Shown: piece by piece, positions 7,589 to 56,410 of the stretch
Position numbering within the stretch: the first letter of the stretch is position 1
Layout of the letters: each line of letters starts with the position of its first letter
Virus record (IMG/VR): IMGVR_UViG_3300025713_000650
Coordinates: 83,640 to 147,639 of that record
Strand: one strand, 5' to 3'
Length of the DNA stretch: 64,000 nucleotides
Source: a virus
Taxonomy: Duplodnaviria; Caudoviricetes
The notes under the pieces: model-generated
The model's database searches: none
What the model was told of the DNA's origin: nothing
What the model saw: only the letters and a program-made list of their open reading frames with translations
Position numbers and translations under genes: made by a program

Positions 7589-7608
7589 TCACTAATTAAT
7601 ATATATAG
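7589..7608 (-). promoter_or_regulatory. Conserved phage promoter-like motif CTATATATATTAATTAGTGA
   Basis: 19/20 identical to copies at 12133, 52901, 53439; intergenic, upstream of a gene start. Confidence 0.75.
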
Positions 7609-12132: not shown

Positions 12133-12152
12133 TCATTAATTAATATATATAG
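12133..12152 (-). promoter_or_regulatory. Conserved phage promoter-like motif CTATATATATTAATTAATGA
   Basis: Exact copy of the motif at 52901 and 53439; intergenic, followed by a GGAGGTG SD. Confidence 0.75.
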
Positions 12153-52074: not shown

Positions 52075-52818
52075 TTATTTATTAAATAATATTCTGATTT
52101 CTTTTTCTGTTATAACAATTTCGCTGATTCCCAAATGTCTTACAAATTTCGTAATAACAGAATCAACGATATTGTTTGAATCGTGTTGAAGTTCATTTTC
52201 TTTAAATCTGATGTTCTTTGTTTTCTGTTCTTTTTCAATAATCTCCATTTCATCTTTAATATCCAGAAAATGTTCGACCTTTGATGTTTTATAACATCGT
52301 TTAAGAGTTTTATAAAACTCCTTTTTGAATTCTTCAGAATTCTCAGGAATGATCAGTCTACTTTTTACTCTCTTGATTTTCATATCTTCTGAATATCGTC
52401 TGATTGGAGATGATGCTGCTTTAACTTTAAATAATTCTTCACCTATAAATTTGTTTACTCCATTAATAAATTCCTTTTGTGTAGGAGTTTTAGATGAAGA
52501 TATTACTTGATTTATCTTGGGCCAGTAATACAATGATACAACCATTTTTCCAGAAGTAGATATTTCTTTATCTTTCAGCAACAACTTAAGGTTTTCCATT
52601 GTTACCTCCTCTTTAGAGAAAATTTTTGTCTTAGTTTTCGATGTTTCAGATAAACCATTCAAACCGTTTGATTTTGGCTTATAAATCAGTGCCTTCATTT
52701 CTCCAATTTCTCCAAGGCGATTTTTGACAATTTCTATTCTTTTCTCTTTATCAAGAAATTTATCAATCCCAGCCCCCTCGTAAAAAACTCCGGATTTAAA
52801 ACCTTTGATGTTTTCCAA
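52075..52818 (-). CDS. Hypothetical protein (first gene left of the strand switch)
   Basis: TTG start with AGGAGG SD, own promoter-like motif and terminator. Confidence 0.7.
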   Translation of the reverse strand: MENIKGFKSGVFYEGAGIDKFLDKEKRIEIVKNRLGEIGEMKALIYKPKSNGLNGLSETSKTKTKIFSKEEVTMENLKLLLKDKEISTSGKMVVSLYYWPKINQVISSSKTPTQKEFINGVNKFIGEELFKVKAASSPIRRYSEDMKIKRVKSRLIIPENSEEFKKEFYKTLKRCYKTSKVEHFLDIKDEMEIIEKEQKTKNIRFKENELQHDSNNIVDSVITKFVRHLGISEIVITEKEIRILFNK

Positions 52819-52900: not shown

Positions 52901-52920
52901 TCATTAATTAATATATATAG
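52901..52920 (-). promoter_or_regulatory. Conserved phage promoter-like motif CTATATATATTAATTAATGA
   Basis: Exact 20-bp copy, pointing left away from the repeats. Confidence 0.75.
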
Positions 52921-52956
52921 AATTTTTTTTAAAAACTAAATATTATTTATTAGAAA

Positions 52957-53186
52957 TTGTCTCGAGTGGGAATTCGCGTTTATTTTCTCAGACTTAAAGA
53001 AAAATTTGTCTCGAGTGGGAATTCGCGTTTATTTTCTCAGACTTAAAGAAAAATTTGTCTCGAGTGGGAATTCGCGTTTATTTTCTCGGACTTAAAGAAA
53101 AATTTGTCTCGAGTGGGAATTCGCGTTTATTTTCTCGGACTTAAAGAAAAATTTGTCTCGAGTGGGAATTCGCGTTTATTTTCTCG
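52957..53186. repeat. 49-bp tandem repeat x4.7, iteron-like
   Basis: TTGTCTCGAGTGGGAATTCGCGTTTATTTTCTC(A/G)GACTTAAAGAAAAAT; CTCGAG at 52961, 53010, 53059, 53108, 53157. Confidence 0.97.
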
Positions 53187-53315
53187 CATGTATATTATAT
53201 TATATCTTAAGACTATAATTATATAAATAATCTTAATAATATATTTAATATAAATTTTTTTATAGTTTGTTTTTTTAATTTTAGAACTTTTAGATAGACT
53301 TTAAAAAAACATTTG

Positions 53316-53435
53316 AAAAAGACTTCTACCGAAACAACTGAATTTATATCTACTCAACAGCTAATTATACTTTAAAAAAGACTTCTACCGAAACAACTGA
53401 ATTTATATCTACTCAACAGCTAATTATACTTTAAA
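53316..53435. repeat. 59-bp direct repeat x2
   Basis: AAAAAGACTTCTACCGAAACAACTGAATTTATATCTACTCAACAGCTAATTATACTTTA duplicated. Confidence 0.95.
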
Positions 53436-53438
53436 GAT

Positions 53439-53458
53439 CTATATATATTAATTAATGA
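53439..53458 (+). promoter_or_regulatory. Conserved phage promoter-like motif CTATATATATTAATTAATGA
   Basis: Exact 20-bp copy, pointing right away from the repeats. Confidence 0.75.
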
Positions 53459-53759
53459 AAAAGACAACATCTATTTGTTAATTTGAATTTTAACTTTGTT
53501 TTTTAAAAGATTTGATTTGGATTTAATCATTTGAAATTAACTTTAACTTCAAATGAGATTTGTAACATAATTTATTTATTTGAAGTTAACTTAATTTTGG
53601 GATATGTTTATTTTGGATTTATAAAAATTATAACTAAAAAGATTTTTATTGGATTTATCTTAATTTTTAATCTATTTACTTCAATTTTTATTTTTAGGTT
53701 ATTTTTAATTTTTGTTTTTTTGATTTTTTAAACTTCAGAATAATTCTTATTTTTTAAGC

Positions 53760-54165
53760 AAAAAAACGTCTCAGAATGCTGAGACTATACTAGCCGTAGA
53801 TTCTATTATAATTACCTTTATAACAATCTAGGCAAACATAATCTGAGTTTCATGTATACACTTCGCTCCGATCGCTCGTTCTGGTCCCAAGGACCCCCTC
53901 CCGCGTGGGCTCTCGGGGGTCCTGAGAACCATCTCGGATATTGTAACTATAATGTACAAATTACAATATTGTTCTAAGCTAACTCGTCCTTACCGTCCGA
54001 GGTAGCTCATCACCTCTCTTCATATCCTTTACCTATGTATACTATGATATTACAAAAATATCTATATCTAGCTAGAATTATGACAAGTCTTTTAGCTAAA
54101 TTCTTTTAGCCTTATCTTTAGCAATTACTATAAAAGCTATCTGTATAAATGATCTTTTTTAAAAC
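53760..54165 (-). ncRNA. Candidate structured non-coding RNA of unknown family
   Basis: GC-rich island with at least six nested stems, G-U-compatible mismatches on the minus strand, 3' hairpin plus T-run; 5' end uncertain. Confidence 0.55.
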
Positions 54166-54430
54166 ATCAAGTTTTTGTTCTACATAAACAAAAAAAAATC
54201 TTGAAGGTAAAAATGAGGTTTAGAAAGAATCTTAAACACCTATTTAAGGCATTTACACGTTCAGATATGTTCTAAATTCTTCTAGATTTAATCTAAAGCA
54301 TATTAGATTTTTTCTAATAAAATATTTTAATTTAAAAATTTTTTAAAATTGTTTTAAGATTTAACTTTTAAAATGAGAAACAAAAATGTAAATTAAAGTA
54401 AAGAAAAAAAGCTTCAGAAAGGATGTAAAA

Positions 54431-56410
54431 ATGATAGAAGAAAAAATTTGGTTAAATCAGTCTTTGTTTAATTTTAAAGATTATGCATTTGAATCTAATG
54501 GTTCTTTAGAGTTATATTTATCATCTTATACAGAAGATTATACAAAATTTTCAAATCTTTCATTTGCAATGAGAATAATAAATAATATATCTAATTTTCA
54601 AAGTAAAACATATCGTTTTAATCATTCAGATGCAATGGATCTTATCTTAACATTCAATAATATTTTTAAAAGTATTAATAAAATTTATGATTCTATTGAT
54701 GAAACAAATGCAACAATAGTAAAGAAATATCATACAAATAAAACTTTAAAATTTATTTTTACAGTGAAAAAAAGTGAAAGAGTTTGTATAATTCAAATTT
54801 TGAATAATATTTCAGATTATACATTTGTCATAGTTCCTTTTGAAATATTAAGAACATTTGCTAACCTTTTGAAAAATTTTATTGATAATTATATTTCTCT
54901 TAATATTGAATTTGCAAATAGAAATCTTTTAGAAAGAATTTATTTAAATTCAACTCAAATTAAAGATGGAATTAGAATGTTACCATCATCAATAAATCAA
55001 AATAATGAAAAAATGAATAACTCTTATGAAATTTTAAATGAAGATACTGAATTAAAACAGACTAAAGAAATTTTAGATGAATTGGATTCTTTTCTTGGTG
55101 AAAATATGGAGAATATAATTGTTCCAGAATTAGTTGATGAAAAAATAGAAACAAAAACAGAAAAAGAAATAATTTTAAATGATAATAATATTATTAATGT
55201 TTTTGATAGTATAGAGAATATTGAAGAATTATTATCAAGCTGTGTAATATCAGATGATATGATAGAACCTATATTTTCAAGATTTATTGAAAAACTAAAT
55301 ACTGATGAATCTTTTCAATTTTTACCATCAATATCTGAAAGTGAAATAAAATCTTATAAATATCTATCTAAATTGTTATATCTGAATCAACTTAATGATT
55401 ATTTCAATGGTAAAAAAGATATACCACAAATTAGATTTTTAATTTATAAACCCAAAGAAAAATATGATATTAATATTTCTTTAGCTTTTGATTTATTTAC
55501 TGTCATGATCTATTTAAGATTATTCATTCAAAAATTATCATCAAGAGAATATAATCCAGTTAAAAATAAAACATTATTCTACATTTTATATAGATATGTT
55601 TTTGATATGTTATCAATTAGCTTTATTCAAAATATTGAGACAATTCAAATAAAGACATGTGTAATGGAAAGATTCAAGAATTTTGAAAACTCCAAATTTT
55701 TTGATAATTTTAATGAAATATTAAAAAATTATGGAATAAATAAAATTTTAATTAATGAATTTTCAAATTTAGTTGATAAGTTTTTGAAAATATTATTAGA
55801 TAATGATTCTTTAAATTCAATTGAATACACACATAATGATATTTATAAAAATGGAAAGGAAATAGATGAAATTGAAGTTAAAATTCCATTCAATAATAAT
55901 TTAAGTTTAGAACAAATGTTAAAATTAATAAATTTTGATCTTTATTTAAATAAAAATAATATTGCAATTTTATCTGAAGAACAATTAAAAGAAAAAATGA
56001 TTGAATTAGTTGGTAATGAATATATAAATGATGATATTCTTAAAATATATAAAACCAAAACAAAAATTAATGTGAAAACAAAAGATAGAATAAAAGAAAC
56101 AAATATTCTAAAAGCTTGTAAATTTTATGATCAAGGTATTCCTTCAGATAAATATGAGGAATTTATCGAATATACTTCAAATCTTGAAAATGAAGATTTT
56201 GATTGGAATAAATTTGAACTTGAAGAATTTGATGATTCCATATTTAAAGTAATATATGTTTGGAATGAAAATGAAAAGAATATTGCTTATTCAGATTTTA
56301 TGACAAAAGTTGAAAATTGTTCAATGGATAAGCAAATTTTATTAGCTAAAATTAGAATAATTGATACAACATCAATACCAAATGAAGATTGGGATTTAGA
56401 AAATTTATAA
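54431..56410 (+). CDS. Hypothetical protein (659 aa)
   Basis: Long ORF with AAAGGA SD, acidic C-terminus. Confidence 0.75.
   Translation: MIEEKIWLNQSLFNFKDYAFESNGSLELYLSSYTEDYTKFSNLSFAMRIINNISNFQSKTYRFNHSDAMDLILTFNNIFKSINKIYDSIDETNATIVKKYHTNKTLKFIFTVKKSERVCIIQILNNISDYTFVIVPFEILRTFANLLKNFIDNYISLNIEFANRNLLERIYLNSTQIKDGIRMLPSSINQNNEKMNNSYEILNEDTELKQTKEILDELDSFLGENMENIIVPELVDEKIETKTEKEIILNDNNIINVFDSIENIEELLSSCVISDDMIEPIFSRFIEKLNTDESFQFLPSISESEIKSYKYLSKLLYLNQLNDYFNGKKDIPQIRFLIYKPKEKYDINISLAFDLFTVMIYLRLFIQKLSSREYNPVKNKTLFYILYRYVFDMLSISFIQNIETIQIKTCVMERFKNFENSKFFDNFNEILKNYGINKILINEFSNLVDKFLKILLDNDSLNSIEYTHNDIYKNGKEIDEIEVKIPFNNNLSLEQMLKLINFDLYLNKNNIAILSEEQLKEKMIELVGNEYINDDILKIYKTKTKINVKTKDRIKETNILKACKFYDQGIPSDKYEEFIEYTSNLENEDFDWNKFELEEFDDSIFKVIYVWNENEKNIAYSDFMTKVENCSMDKQILLAKIRIIDTTSIPNEDWDLENL

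What the first reader, a model, noticed from the sequence alone, without database searches (positions are those of the whole stretch)
53760..54165. Unassigned ~400-nt structured RNA candidate pointing into the putative origin
Seen: a GC-rich non-coding island with stems at 53768-53785, 53793-53833, 53867-53938 (core AGGACCCCC/GGGGGTCCT with nested CCC-GCGT-GGG), 53938-53969, 53977-54007 and 54047-54062. The central stems are enclosed by CATGTATAC (53851) / GTATACTATG (54037). Two C-A mismatches in the long stem become G-U pairs on the minus strand, and the minus strand ends in hairpin plus TTTTTTT, so the RNA would be minus-strand. I could not match it to tRNA, tmRNA, RNase P, SRP or omegaRNA by eye. 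Inference: a new phage ncRNA, possibly a replication primer/regulator or an RNAP-binding RNA.
Basis: partly seen in the sequence, partly recalled or inferred. Interest (0 to 1): 0.8.

Follow-up and report, generated by a model that had tools for sequence, protein, structure and literature searches.

The report
Candidate lineage-specific phage non-coding RNA
A 435-bp non-coding block in a very AT-rich jumbo phage looks like a small RNA gene with two conserved GC-rich hairpins and its own terminator, but it occurs in only two closely related phage lineages, no transcript has been shown, and its function is unknown.

Summary
The GC-rich non-coding island is real: about 43% GC against about 20% background, with no conserved reading frame. 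It matches no Rfam family, tRNA or tmRNA. It is single-copy. I found it in only two phage lineages, which are about 68-70% identical across the block. More distant relatives that keep the neighbouring 659-aa gene lack it.

The conserved block is 53760-54195 and has sharp edges. Its low-coordinate edge is an intrinsic terminator that works only on the minus strand and is identical in both lineages. Comparison supports two hairpins, 53975-54009 and 53882-53931, through both-sided compensatory changes and structure-preserving substitutions.

The 5' 180 nt is conserved in sequence but unstructured. G-U pairs, folding energy and the terminator all favour the minus strand.

The best reading is a roughly 390-430-nt minus-strand ncRNA gene. 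It probably acts locally in the divergent iteron/AT-rich control region, for example as an antisense partner of a rightward transcript from a conserved promoter-like motif. Expression and function are untested. Interest is modest.

The parts
53760..54195 (-). Conserved non-coding block, the candidate ncRNA gene. It runs from the promoter/5' region to the terminator.
   Evidence: Identity to the sister lineage is 52-82% inside the block. It drops to 36-46% beyond 54195 and to 48% at 53710-53759. The block is single-copy. No conserved ORF.
53761..53785 (-). Intrinsic terminator: a 7-bp hairpin GTCTCAG/CTGAGAC with a 4-nt loop, followed by T7.
   Evidence: The hairpin and the 7 nt before it are 25/25 identical in both lineages, and the tail is T-rich in both. 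There is no minus-strand ORF upstream for it to serve.
53975..54009 (-). Hairpin H1/H2: a 7-bp outer stem, a 1x1 internal loop, an inner stem and a GGUA(A)/GGAA loop.
   Evidence: Three both-sided compensatory pairs. z is -4.6 here and -7.7 in the sister lineage. 0 of 1000 random-substitution controls fold as well as the real sister sequence.
53882..53931 (-). Hairpin H3/H4: the 9-bp core AGGACCCCC/GGGGGTCCT, an outer 7-bp stem with U-G pairs, and a conserved 16-nt apical loop.
   Evidence: One C-G to U-A compensatory pair. The outer stem is re-formed in a shifted register in the sister lineage. z is -4.3 here and -1.6 in the sister. Substitution test p=0.04.
53938..53969 (-). Lineage-specific 11-bp AT-rich hairpin in the variable spacer between the two conserved hairpins.
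   Evidence: Present here. It is replaced by unrelated sequence with indels in the sister lineage.
53822..53876 (-). Possible third hairpin (H5-H7). Unsupported.
   Evidence: One compensatory pair and invariant G-U pairs. However, z is -1.4 here and +0.5 in the sister, the substitution test gives p=0.29, and one G001 substitution breaks a modelled pair while another hits the adjacent position that pairs in the L002 fold.
54013..54195 (-). AT-rich 5' part. It is the best-conserved sequence of the block (54046-54195 is 70-82% identical) but is not significantly structured. It holds a small hairpin at 54094-54111. It presumably contains the promoter and the 5' end.
   Evidence: The edge motif TGTAGAACAAAAAC is not recurrent elsewhere.
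53439..53455 (+). Promoter-like 17-mer. It reads CTATATATATTAATTAA on the plus strand and points rightward into the block.
   Evidence: It is identical to the copies 32-86 nt upstream of three minus-strand genes. It is conserved at the same place in the sister lineage. It is strongly oriented in the 2.2-Mb bin G001: 17 forward, 3 reverse, controls 3 and 2.
52954..53198 (.). Context: a 49-bp x5 iteron-like array lying between the two divergent promoter-like motifs.
   Evidence: The core motif recurs three times with different spacing in the sister lineage. Copy number is 5 here and 2 in L005.

Best explanation
The block 53760-54195 is a single-copy, lineage-specific non-coding RNA gene on the minus strand.

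Transcription would start in the conserved AT-rich segment. This is inferred: the start would be about 54140-54190, and no promoter was identified. It would end at the intrinsic terminator at 53785-53761, giving an RNA of about 390-430 nt. The 5' half is AT-rich and largely single-stranded. The 3' half is GC-rich and carries two evolutionarily maintained hairpins with conserved loops.

The mechanism I consider most likely is inferred, with about 0.25-0.3 probability. The RNA acts in cis at the divergent control region. It is fully complementary to any transcript made rightward from the conserved promoter-like motif at 53439-53455, which has no ORF for about 970 nt. It could therefore act as an antisense or convergent-transcription regulator of the long leader of the rightward operon, whose first gene encodes a 659-aa protein with a PUR/Whirly-like domain. 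It could also regulate transcription across the AT-rich iteron region. The stable hairpin loops would serve as the first contact points.

Shown: conservation, non-coding status, two selected hairpins, the terminator, the strand cues and single-copy status.

Inferred: that the block is transcribed, its 5' end, and its function.
For: - The block has sharp conservation edges, and one edge is the terminator.
- The terminator is functional only on the minus strand, is perfectly conserved, and has no upstream minus-strand ORF to serve.
- The minus strand folds 13-31 kcal/mol better than the plus strand in both lineages.
- The consensus fold has 51 pairs at -56 kcal/mol on the minus strand, against 33 pairs at -43 on the plus strand.
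- Invariant and newly arising G-U pairs would be A-C mismatches on the plus strand or in duplex DNA.
- Five pairs have both-sided changes, against 0-2 in slid controls; 4 of 500 shuffles reach the observed value.
- Substitutions preserve H1/H2 (0 of 1000 controls) and H3/H4 (p=0.04).
- Of 14 differences between the two L002-type sequences, only 1 hits a modelled paired column.
- No reading frame is conserved.
- The rightward promoter-like motif is conserved and strongly oriented.
Against: - No expression data.
- No recognisable promoter on the minus strand. Sigma-70-like matches are at chance level, and the 5'-edge motif is not recurrent.
- Only two lineages exist, effectively two sequences, so covariation has little power.
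- An unbiased projection of each single-sequence MFE onto the other lineage shows no excess of kept pairs (13/36 against a null of 0.32, P=0.34).
- Z-scores do not separate the strands; for the L002 core the plus strand gives z -6.3 and the minus strand -4.8.
- H5-H7 and the 5' half lack structural support.
- The terminator pattern alone is not rarer than in shuffled sequence.
- A cis-antisense role would not explain why the 5' half is conserved in sequence.
- The element is dispensable in related phages.
Confidence: 0.45

Rival explanations
1. DNA-level element. The hairpins are inverted repeats that act in DNA, as binding sites for dimeric regulators or initiators, or as cruciform or single-strand hairpins at a replication origin. 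The block would belong to the origin/regulatory region together with the iterons and the AT-rich tract, and it would not encode an RNA.
For: - It lies at the strand switch, next to a 49-bp iteron-like array, an AT-only tract, and genes for a helicase, a clamp loader and a PUR/Whirly-like single-strand-binding domain.
- Both strands fold significantly.
- Coordinated change in both arms of an inverted repeat is also expected if a dimeric protein changes specificity.
- The 5' half is conserved in sequence without structure, as protein-binding DNA would be.
Against: - The arms are separated by 16-20 nt with nested stems, unlike typical operators.
- Conserved G-U pairs and G-U-creating substitutions mean mismatched arms at the DNA level.
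- The perfectly conserved hairpin plus T-run is a transcription signal.
- Nothing shows that an origin is here; the GC-skew minimum coincides with the switch in gene orientation.
Confidence: 0.2
2. Plus-strand cis element. The block is part of a leader of about 970 nt, transcribed rightward from the motif at 53439-53455 into the 659-aa gene. The hairpins would act in that leader, for example as a put-like processive antitermination, stability or processing element. The minus-strand terminator would only stop stray antisense transcription.
For: - The promoter-like motif points into the block and has no ORF before 54431.
- It is conserved in the sister lineage.
- H1/H2, the core of H3 and the 53768-53785 hairpin also form on the plus strand.
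- No plus-strand terminator lies between the motif and the gene.
Against: - The plus strand loses 18 of the 51 consensus pairs and 13 kcal/mol.
- G-U pairs become A-C mismatches.
- The plus strand places a functionless A-run before the best-conserved hairpin.
- The last 236 nt before the start codon, where an expression platform would sit, are the least conserved (36-50%).
- The motif's other copies sit 32-86 nt from their genes.
Confidence: 0.15
3. Relic without a function of its own. The GC-rich island is a decaying fragment of foreign or mobile DNA. This genome carries IscB, TnpB remnants and homing-endonuclease genes, and the island's hairpins are inherited leftovers.
For: - GC content is twice the genome background.
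- Distribution is narrow, and related phages lack the element.
- The region is a hotspot of rearrangement and repeat-number change.
- Mobile OMEGA elements lie nearby.
Against: - No similarity to HEARO/omegaRNA or to any other family, and no paralogue.
- At about 32% divergence, the substitutions keep H1/H2 and H3 far better than random ones do.
- The terminator and the loop sequences are invariant.
Confidence: 0.1

Closest known systems
Plasmid and phage antisense or counter-transcript RNAs (ColE1 RNA I, R1 CopA, lambda oop RNA). Comparison from my own knowledge.
   Same: A short to medium untranslated RNA made of stable stem-loops and ended by an intrinsic terminator. It is encoded opposite a longer transcript in a replication or regulatory region. 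Lambda oop also lies beside the origin.
   Different: Those RNAs are 60-110 nt, and their sense targets are known. Here the RNA would be about 400 nt, the sense transcript is only inferred from a promoter-like motif, and neither RNA has been observed.
ColE1 RNA II and T4 origin transcripts (RNA primers formed as R-loops). Comparison from my own knowledge.
   Same: A structured RNA of several hundred nt, transcribed toward an AT-rich, repeat-bearing region that could be an origin.
   Different: Primer RNAs must extend into the origin. This one meets a strong, perfectly conserved terminator about 300 nt before the repeats. No origin has been demonstrated.
HEARO / IscB omegaRNA (RF02033)
   Same: A structured RNA of 200-400 nt in the same phage; a genuine copy lies at 48898-49139 (134.8 bits).
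   Different: The candidate gives no HEARO hit even at E<=10. It has no adjacent IscB or TnpB gene and no sequence similarity to that copy.
HK022 put RNA, a cis-acting RNA of two stem-loops that binds RNA polymerase. Comparison from my own knowledge.
   Same: Two conserved stem-loops in an untranslated stretch downstream of a phage promoter, if the plus strand is the functional one.
   Different: put is about 70 nt and lies directly after its promoter. Here the strand cues favour the opposite strand, and no termination sites to override are known.
Large phage-associated structured RNAs (GOLLD, ROOL)
   Same: An unexplained structured RNA encoded by a phage.
   Different: No Rfam match. Those RNAs are larger, widespread, and supported by extensive covariation. 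This element is confined to two close lineages.

Membership tests
Any Rfam 15 family (4227 models, including HEARO, GOLLD, ROOL, 6S, RNase P, SRP, tmRNA, group I/II introns and ribozymes) | Score at or above the family's gathering threshold | tested here: not met
   The whole window gives only HEARO, at 48898-49139. At E<=10, 53300-54500 gives three chance-level hits of 10-19 bits against cut-offs of 50-66. The sister-lineage copy gives eight different chance-level hits, and no family is shared between the two.
tRNA / tmRNA | Cloverleaf or tRNA-like domain detected by ARAGORN | tested here: not met
   0 genes in the whole window.
IscB/TnpB omegaRNA | Adjacent nuclease gene and the family's RNA scaffold | tested here: not met
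   There is no ORF in or beside the block. No HEARO match. No similarity to the window's own omegaRNA.
Independent bacterial/phage sRNA gene | Intrinsic terminator at the 3' end on the RNA strand | tested here: met
   A 7-bp hairpin with 4 G-C pairs followed by T7, on the minus strand only. It is invariant in the sister lineage.
Independent bacterial/phage sRNA gene | Own promoter and a defined 5' end | tested here: inconclusive
   Sigma-70-like matches are at chance level (14 found, 16.1 expected). The phage's recurrent 17-mer is absent on this strand. The 5'-edge motif is not recurrent.
Independent bacterial/phage sRNA gene | A detectable transcript | not testable with these tools
Conserved structured RNA | Statistically supported covariation across many homologues | tested here: inconclusive
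   Only two lineages exist. Five both-sided changes against 0-2 in slid controls. H1/H2 and H3/H4 pass a substitution test. The whole-fold projection test is not significant.
Cis-antisense RNA | An overlapping transcript from the opposite strand | tested here: inconclusive
   A conserved, oriented promoter-like motif points into the block, with no terminator or ORF in between. No transcript data.
Replication primer RNA (ColE1 RNA II type) | The transcript continues into the origin and forms a hybrid there | tested here: not met
   A strong conserved terminator ends the unit at 53761, about 300 nt before the promoter motif and the repeats. The origin itself is unproven.

The most novel reading that the evidence does not exclude
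The RNA is a dedicated partner of the phage replication or regulatory module. In this reading it is a structured RNA whose purine-rich hairpin strand (GGGAGGGGG, or GGAAGGAGG in the sister lineage) or loops are bound by the divergently encoded PUR/Whirly-domain protein. It would control or prime initiation at the adjacent iteron/AT-rich region. That would be an RNA-dependent origin-control system in a jumbo phage.
Probability: 0.08. Interest if true: 0.7.

Novelty: new member of a known kind. Interest (0 to 1): 0.35.

Why it matters
If the block is transcribed, it would be an unclassified ncRNA of about 400 nt. It sits at the only strand-switch/control region of this part of a jumbo phage that encodes its own RNA polymerases, beside iteron-like repeats and a gene for a PUR/Whirly-like nucleic-acid-binding protein. 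Very little is known about how such phages control replication or the early-to-late switch, so a local RNA regulator would give a way in.

Against that, the element is confined to two close lineages and is absent from related phages. Any role is therefore accessory, and the present evidence does not go beyond a good candidate.

Tried and rejected
- **Rfam:** searched at gathering score and at E<=10, on both lineages. No family.
- **ARAGORN:** no genes.
- **blastn against 50,697 phage records:** no match.
- **IMG/VR:** four DNA patterns and two protein-based scans found no relatives. The three hits were high-GC chance matches.
- **Metagenome pattern scan:** only the two known lineages, plus high-GC chance hits.
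- **GTDB genome scans:** one found nothing. The other found a 136-kb contig of the L002-type phage binned into a MAG.
- **More distant relatives** of the 659-aa neighbour (34-37% identity; L023-L026) lack the element:
  - nhmmer and the covariance model R1 found nothing.
  - The upstream region of L024 is unstructured (z +0.5).
  - The GC island of L023 is a 57-codon ORF unrelated to this block.
- **Paralogues:** none in the window or in the 2.2-Mb bin.
- **Small-ORF or type I toxin reading:** no conserved frame.
- **Trans targets:** no GC-containing complementarity of 12 nt or more elsewhere in the window.
- **GGA-motif (CsrA-sponge) idea:** I counted seven GGA by eye, which is about what the base composition predicts, so I dropped it.
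- **Type III toxin-antitoxin or TIGR-like reading of the 49-bp array and the 247-aa ORF:** no PADLOC, Pfam or PHROG hit. The units are identical, with no variable spacers, and the promoter motif lies between the array and the ORF.
- **247-aa protein:** the AlphaFold model is too poor to use (pLDDT 43), and the Atlas gives only weak winged-helix-like neighbours.
- **5'-edge motif as a recurrent promoter:** not enriched.

Full report
**Context.** The window comes from a phage with about 20% GC. Left of the site all genes are on the minus strand. They include primase, an IscB with a bona fide HEARO/omegaRNA at 48898-49139, a clamp loader, a Dda-like helicase and an unassigned 247-aa ORF at 52075-52818. 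Right of the site all genes are on the plus strand, starting with a 659-aa gene at 54431. The finding lies in the 1612-bp gap between these two blocks. From left to right the gap holds:
- a promoter-like 17-mer facing left (52904-52920);
- a 49-bp x5 tandem array (52954-53198);
- an AT-only tract;
- a 59-bp duplication;
- the same 17-mer facing right (53439-53455);
- about 300 bp of AT-rich DNA;
- the GC-rich island.

**The observation.** GC reaches 0.435 at 53800-53999, against 0.16-0.23 around it. The stretch 53750-54180 folds to -125 kcal/mol on the minus strand (z -6.4) and -97.9 on the plus strand (z -5.1). The hairpin at 53768-53785 followed by seven T is the only terminator-like site in the gap, and it is on the minus strand. 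There is no tRNA or tmRNA. No Rfam family matches at gathering score or at E<=10. Every reading frame carries 7-13 stops.

**Homologues.** The phage database and IMG/VR contain nothing similar. The 659-aa neighbour led to two groups of contigs:
- near-identical strains, 99.9-100% identical across the block;
- a second lineage with 82% protein identity (L001-L003).

A pattern scan of metagenomes found only these two lineages. A scan of GTDB genomes found a 136-kb contig of the second lineage inside a MAG, handle G001. Its copy of the block is 96.7% identical to L002.

Across the block the two lineages are 68% identical. Conservation has sharp edges. It is 52-82% inside 53760-54195, 36-46% beyond 54195, and 48% just below 53760. 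The best-conserved parts are the terminator, with 25 of 25 positions identical, and the AT-rich 5' segment 54046-54195.

Relatives whose 659-aa homologue is only 34-37% identical lack the element. nhmmer and a covariance model built from H1-H3 find nothing. The upstream region of L024 is unstructured (z +0.5) and has no terminator. In L023 a GC-rich patch at the same place is a 57-codon ORF with no similarity to the block. The model also shows that the element is single-copy in the window and in the 2.2-Mb bin.

**How much structure is supported.** Each lineage folded on its own gives the same hairpins at homologous positions.
- **H1/H2 (53975-54009).** The outer stem changes from GAGCUA/UAGCUU to UUUCUA/UAGAAA, which is three both-sided changes. 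A tandem G-A/A-G in the window becomes two U-A pairs. The loop is GGUAA, GGUA or GGAA.
- **H3 (53890-53923).** One C-G pair becomes U-A. The apical loop is nearly invariant.
- **H4, the outer stem of H3.** It keeps its 5' strand and re-pairs with a changed 3' strand in a shifted register, using U-G pairs.
- **Tally.** On a curated 59-pair model, 93.6% of cells pair. Five pairs show both-sided changes, against 0-2 when partners are slid. Only 4 of 500 shuffles reach the observed values.
- **Substitution test.** I asked whether the sister lineage's real substitutions keep folding energy better than the same number of random substitutions. The result was 0 of 1000 for H1/H2, p=0.04 for H3/H4, p=0.29 for the putative H5-H7, and no conservation for the 53938-53969 hairpin.
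- **Per-hairpin z-scores agree.** H1/H2 gives -4.6 and -7.7. H3/H4 gives -4.3 and -1.6. H5-H7 gives -1.4 and +0.5.
- **The 5' part.** 54013-54195 is not significantly structured in either lineage.
- **Unbiased projection.** Projecting each single-sequence MFE onto the other lineage shows no overall excess of kept pairs (13 of 36, null 0.32).
- **The outer clamp.** The CATGTATAC/GTATACTATG clamp has no counterpart in the sister lineage.
- **Differences within the second lineage.** Of the 14 differences between L002 and G001, only one hits a modelled paired column, and that is in the doubtful H6.

The supported picture is therefore two selected hairpins, a terminator hairpin and one weak small hairpin (54094-54111). 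They sit in a block whose remaining parts are either conserved in sequence or free to vary.

**Strand.** Four lines favour the minus strand.
- The terminator works only there, and no minus-strand ORF lies upstream of it, so it can only end a non-coding unit.
- Minus-strand folds are 31 kcal/mol more stable in the window and 13 kcal/mol more stable in L002.
- The two-lineage consensus has 51 pairs on the minus strand and 33 on the plus strand.
- Several pairs are invariant G-U or become G-U by one-sided changes. All of these would be A-C mismatches on the other strand or in DNA.

Z-scores do not separate the strands. A promoter on the minus strand could not be recognised.

**What it most likely is.** A conserved block with sharp edges, no coding frame, a terminator at one edge and selected hairpins inside is most simply a small transcription unit. 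That would be a minus-strand ncRNA of about 390-430 nt. I give this about 0.45-0.55.

**Likely function.** For function I lean toward local antisense or convergent control. The 17-mer CTATATATATTAATTAA sits 32-86 nt upstream of three minus-strand genes. It is strongly oriented in the sister genome: 17 forward, 3 reverse, controls 3 and 2. In both lineages one copy points rightward into the block, with no ORF or terminator before the 659-aa gene. If it fires, its transcript is fully complementary to the candidate RNA. This is inference, at about 0.25-0.3.

**Rival readings.**
- DNA-level hairpins or binding sites of an origin or regulatory region (0.2).
- A plus-strand leader element (0.15).
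- A functionless GC-rich relic (0.1).

The replication-primer idea is weakened by the terminator, which ends the unit about 300 nt before the repeats. Nothing specific supports RNA polymerase binding.

**Neighbouring proteins.** The 659-aa neighbour belongs to a family of at least 184 representative clusters. Its AlphaFold model (pLDDT 81) has an N-terminal domain, residues 6-159, with the PUR-alpha/Whirly fold of single-strand nucleic-acid binders:
- Foldseek: probability 1.0, E 4e-4.
- VIA against PUR-alpha: Z 11.7, rmsd 3.7 over 138 residues.
- VIA against Whirly: Z 11.5.
- VIA against the trypanosome guide-RNA-binding MRP1/2: Z 9.3-9.7.

The 247-aa ORF remains unassigned. It evolves fast, at 53% identity between lineages. 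Together with the helicase, clamp loader and primase, this makes the neighbourhood a replication or nucleic-acid-handling module. That fits the idea that the gap is a control or origin region, but does not prove it.

**Verdict.** This is a real, non-coding, selected element and a reasonable new ncRNA candidate of no known family. It has a narrow distribution, modest comparative support and no expression evidence. This scan had not noted it before on other DNA.

Noticed in passing
window 54431-56410 (+): The 659-aa protein has no Pfam hit. Residues 6-159 of its model have a PUR-alpha/Whirly/MRP1-2 fold, that of ssDNA/RNA binders (VIA Z 11.7, 11.5 and 9.7). The rest is a large helical domain. 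The family has at least 184 representative clusters. In related jumbo-phage contigs it is followed by conserved genes of about 190 aa and about 410 aa and a NUDIX gene.
   Followed up: partly
window 52954-53198; L002 1590-1760: The 49-bp x5 tandem array has a core motif, GGGAATTCGCGTTTATTTTCTC, that recurs three times with different spacing in the sister lineage. Copy number is 5 here and 2 in strain L005. Several assemblies break inside or next to the array. It lies between two divergent copies of the promoter-like 17-mer, so it looks like an array of protein-binding sites (iterons or operators).
   Followed up: partly
window 7592-7608, 12136-12152, 52904-52920, 53439-53455; G001:C5: The 17-mer CTATATATATTAATTAA (gene sense) sits 32-86 nt upstream of start codons. 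It is strongly oriented in the sister genome (17 forward, 3 reverse, controls 3 and 2). Divergent pairs occur here and at G001:C5:110803/110894. It is a likely phage promoter class.
   Followed up: partly
window 52075-52818 (-): The 247-aa ORF has about 30% GC in a 20% GC genome. It has no Pfam, PHROG or PADLOC family and is found only in the two lineages that carry the RNA candidate. It is only 53% identical between them, against 82% for the 659-aa gene. The Atlas structure neighbours are weak winged-helix/HTH proteins. It could be the protein that binds the adjacent repeats.
   Followed up: partly
window 53312-53429: A 59-bp exact tandem duplication is present here but is single-copy in strains L005 and L007. 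The sister lineage has a two-copy repeat of related sequence at L002 1918-2010 and a different 48-bp x2 repeat at L002 2100-2199.
   Followed up: no
L027/L029 (G001:C5, GenBank CAYYIP010000005.1): A 136-kb contig of the sister phage lineage (about 22% GC) is binned in a MAG labelled as an uncultured Hyphomicrobiales bacterium. This is probably a binning artefact. Other low-GC contigs of that bin also carry the phage promoter-like motif.
   Followed up: no
L023 70-275 (-): In a 37%-identity relative, the same position upstream of the 659-aa homologue holds a GC-rich 57-codon ORF instead of the RNA candidate. The 93-kb contig ends there.
   Followed up: partly
window 53527-53598: AT-rich inverted repeats (TCATTTGAAATTAA/TTAACTTCAAATGA and a 21-nt pair) lie in the stretch between the rightward promoter motif and the candidate RNA. 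The segment 53521-53570 is 80% conserved in the sister lineage, where the motif is part of a 48-bp x2 repeat.
   Followed up: no
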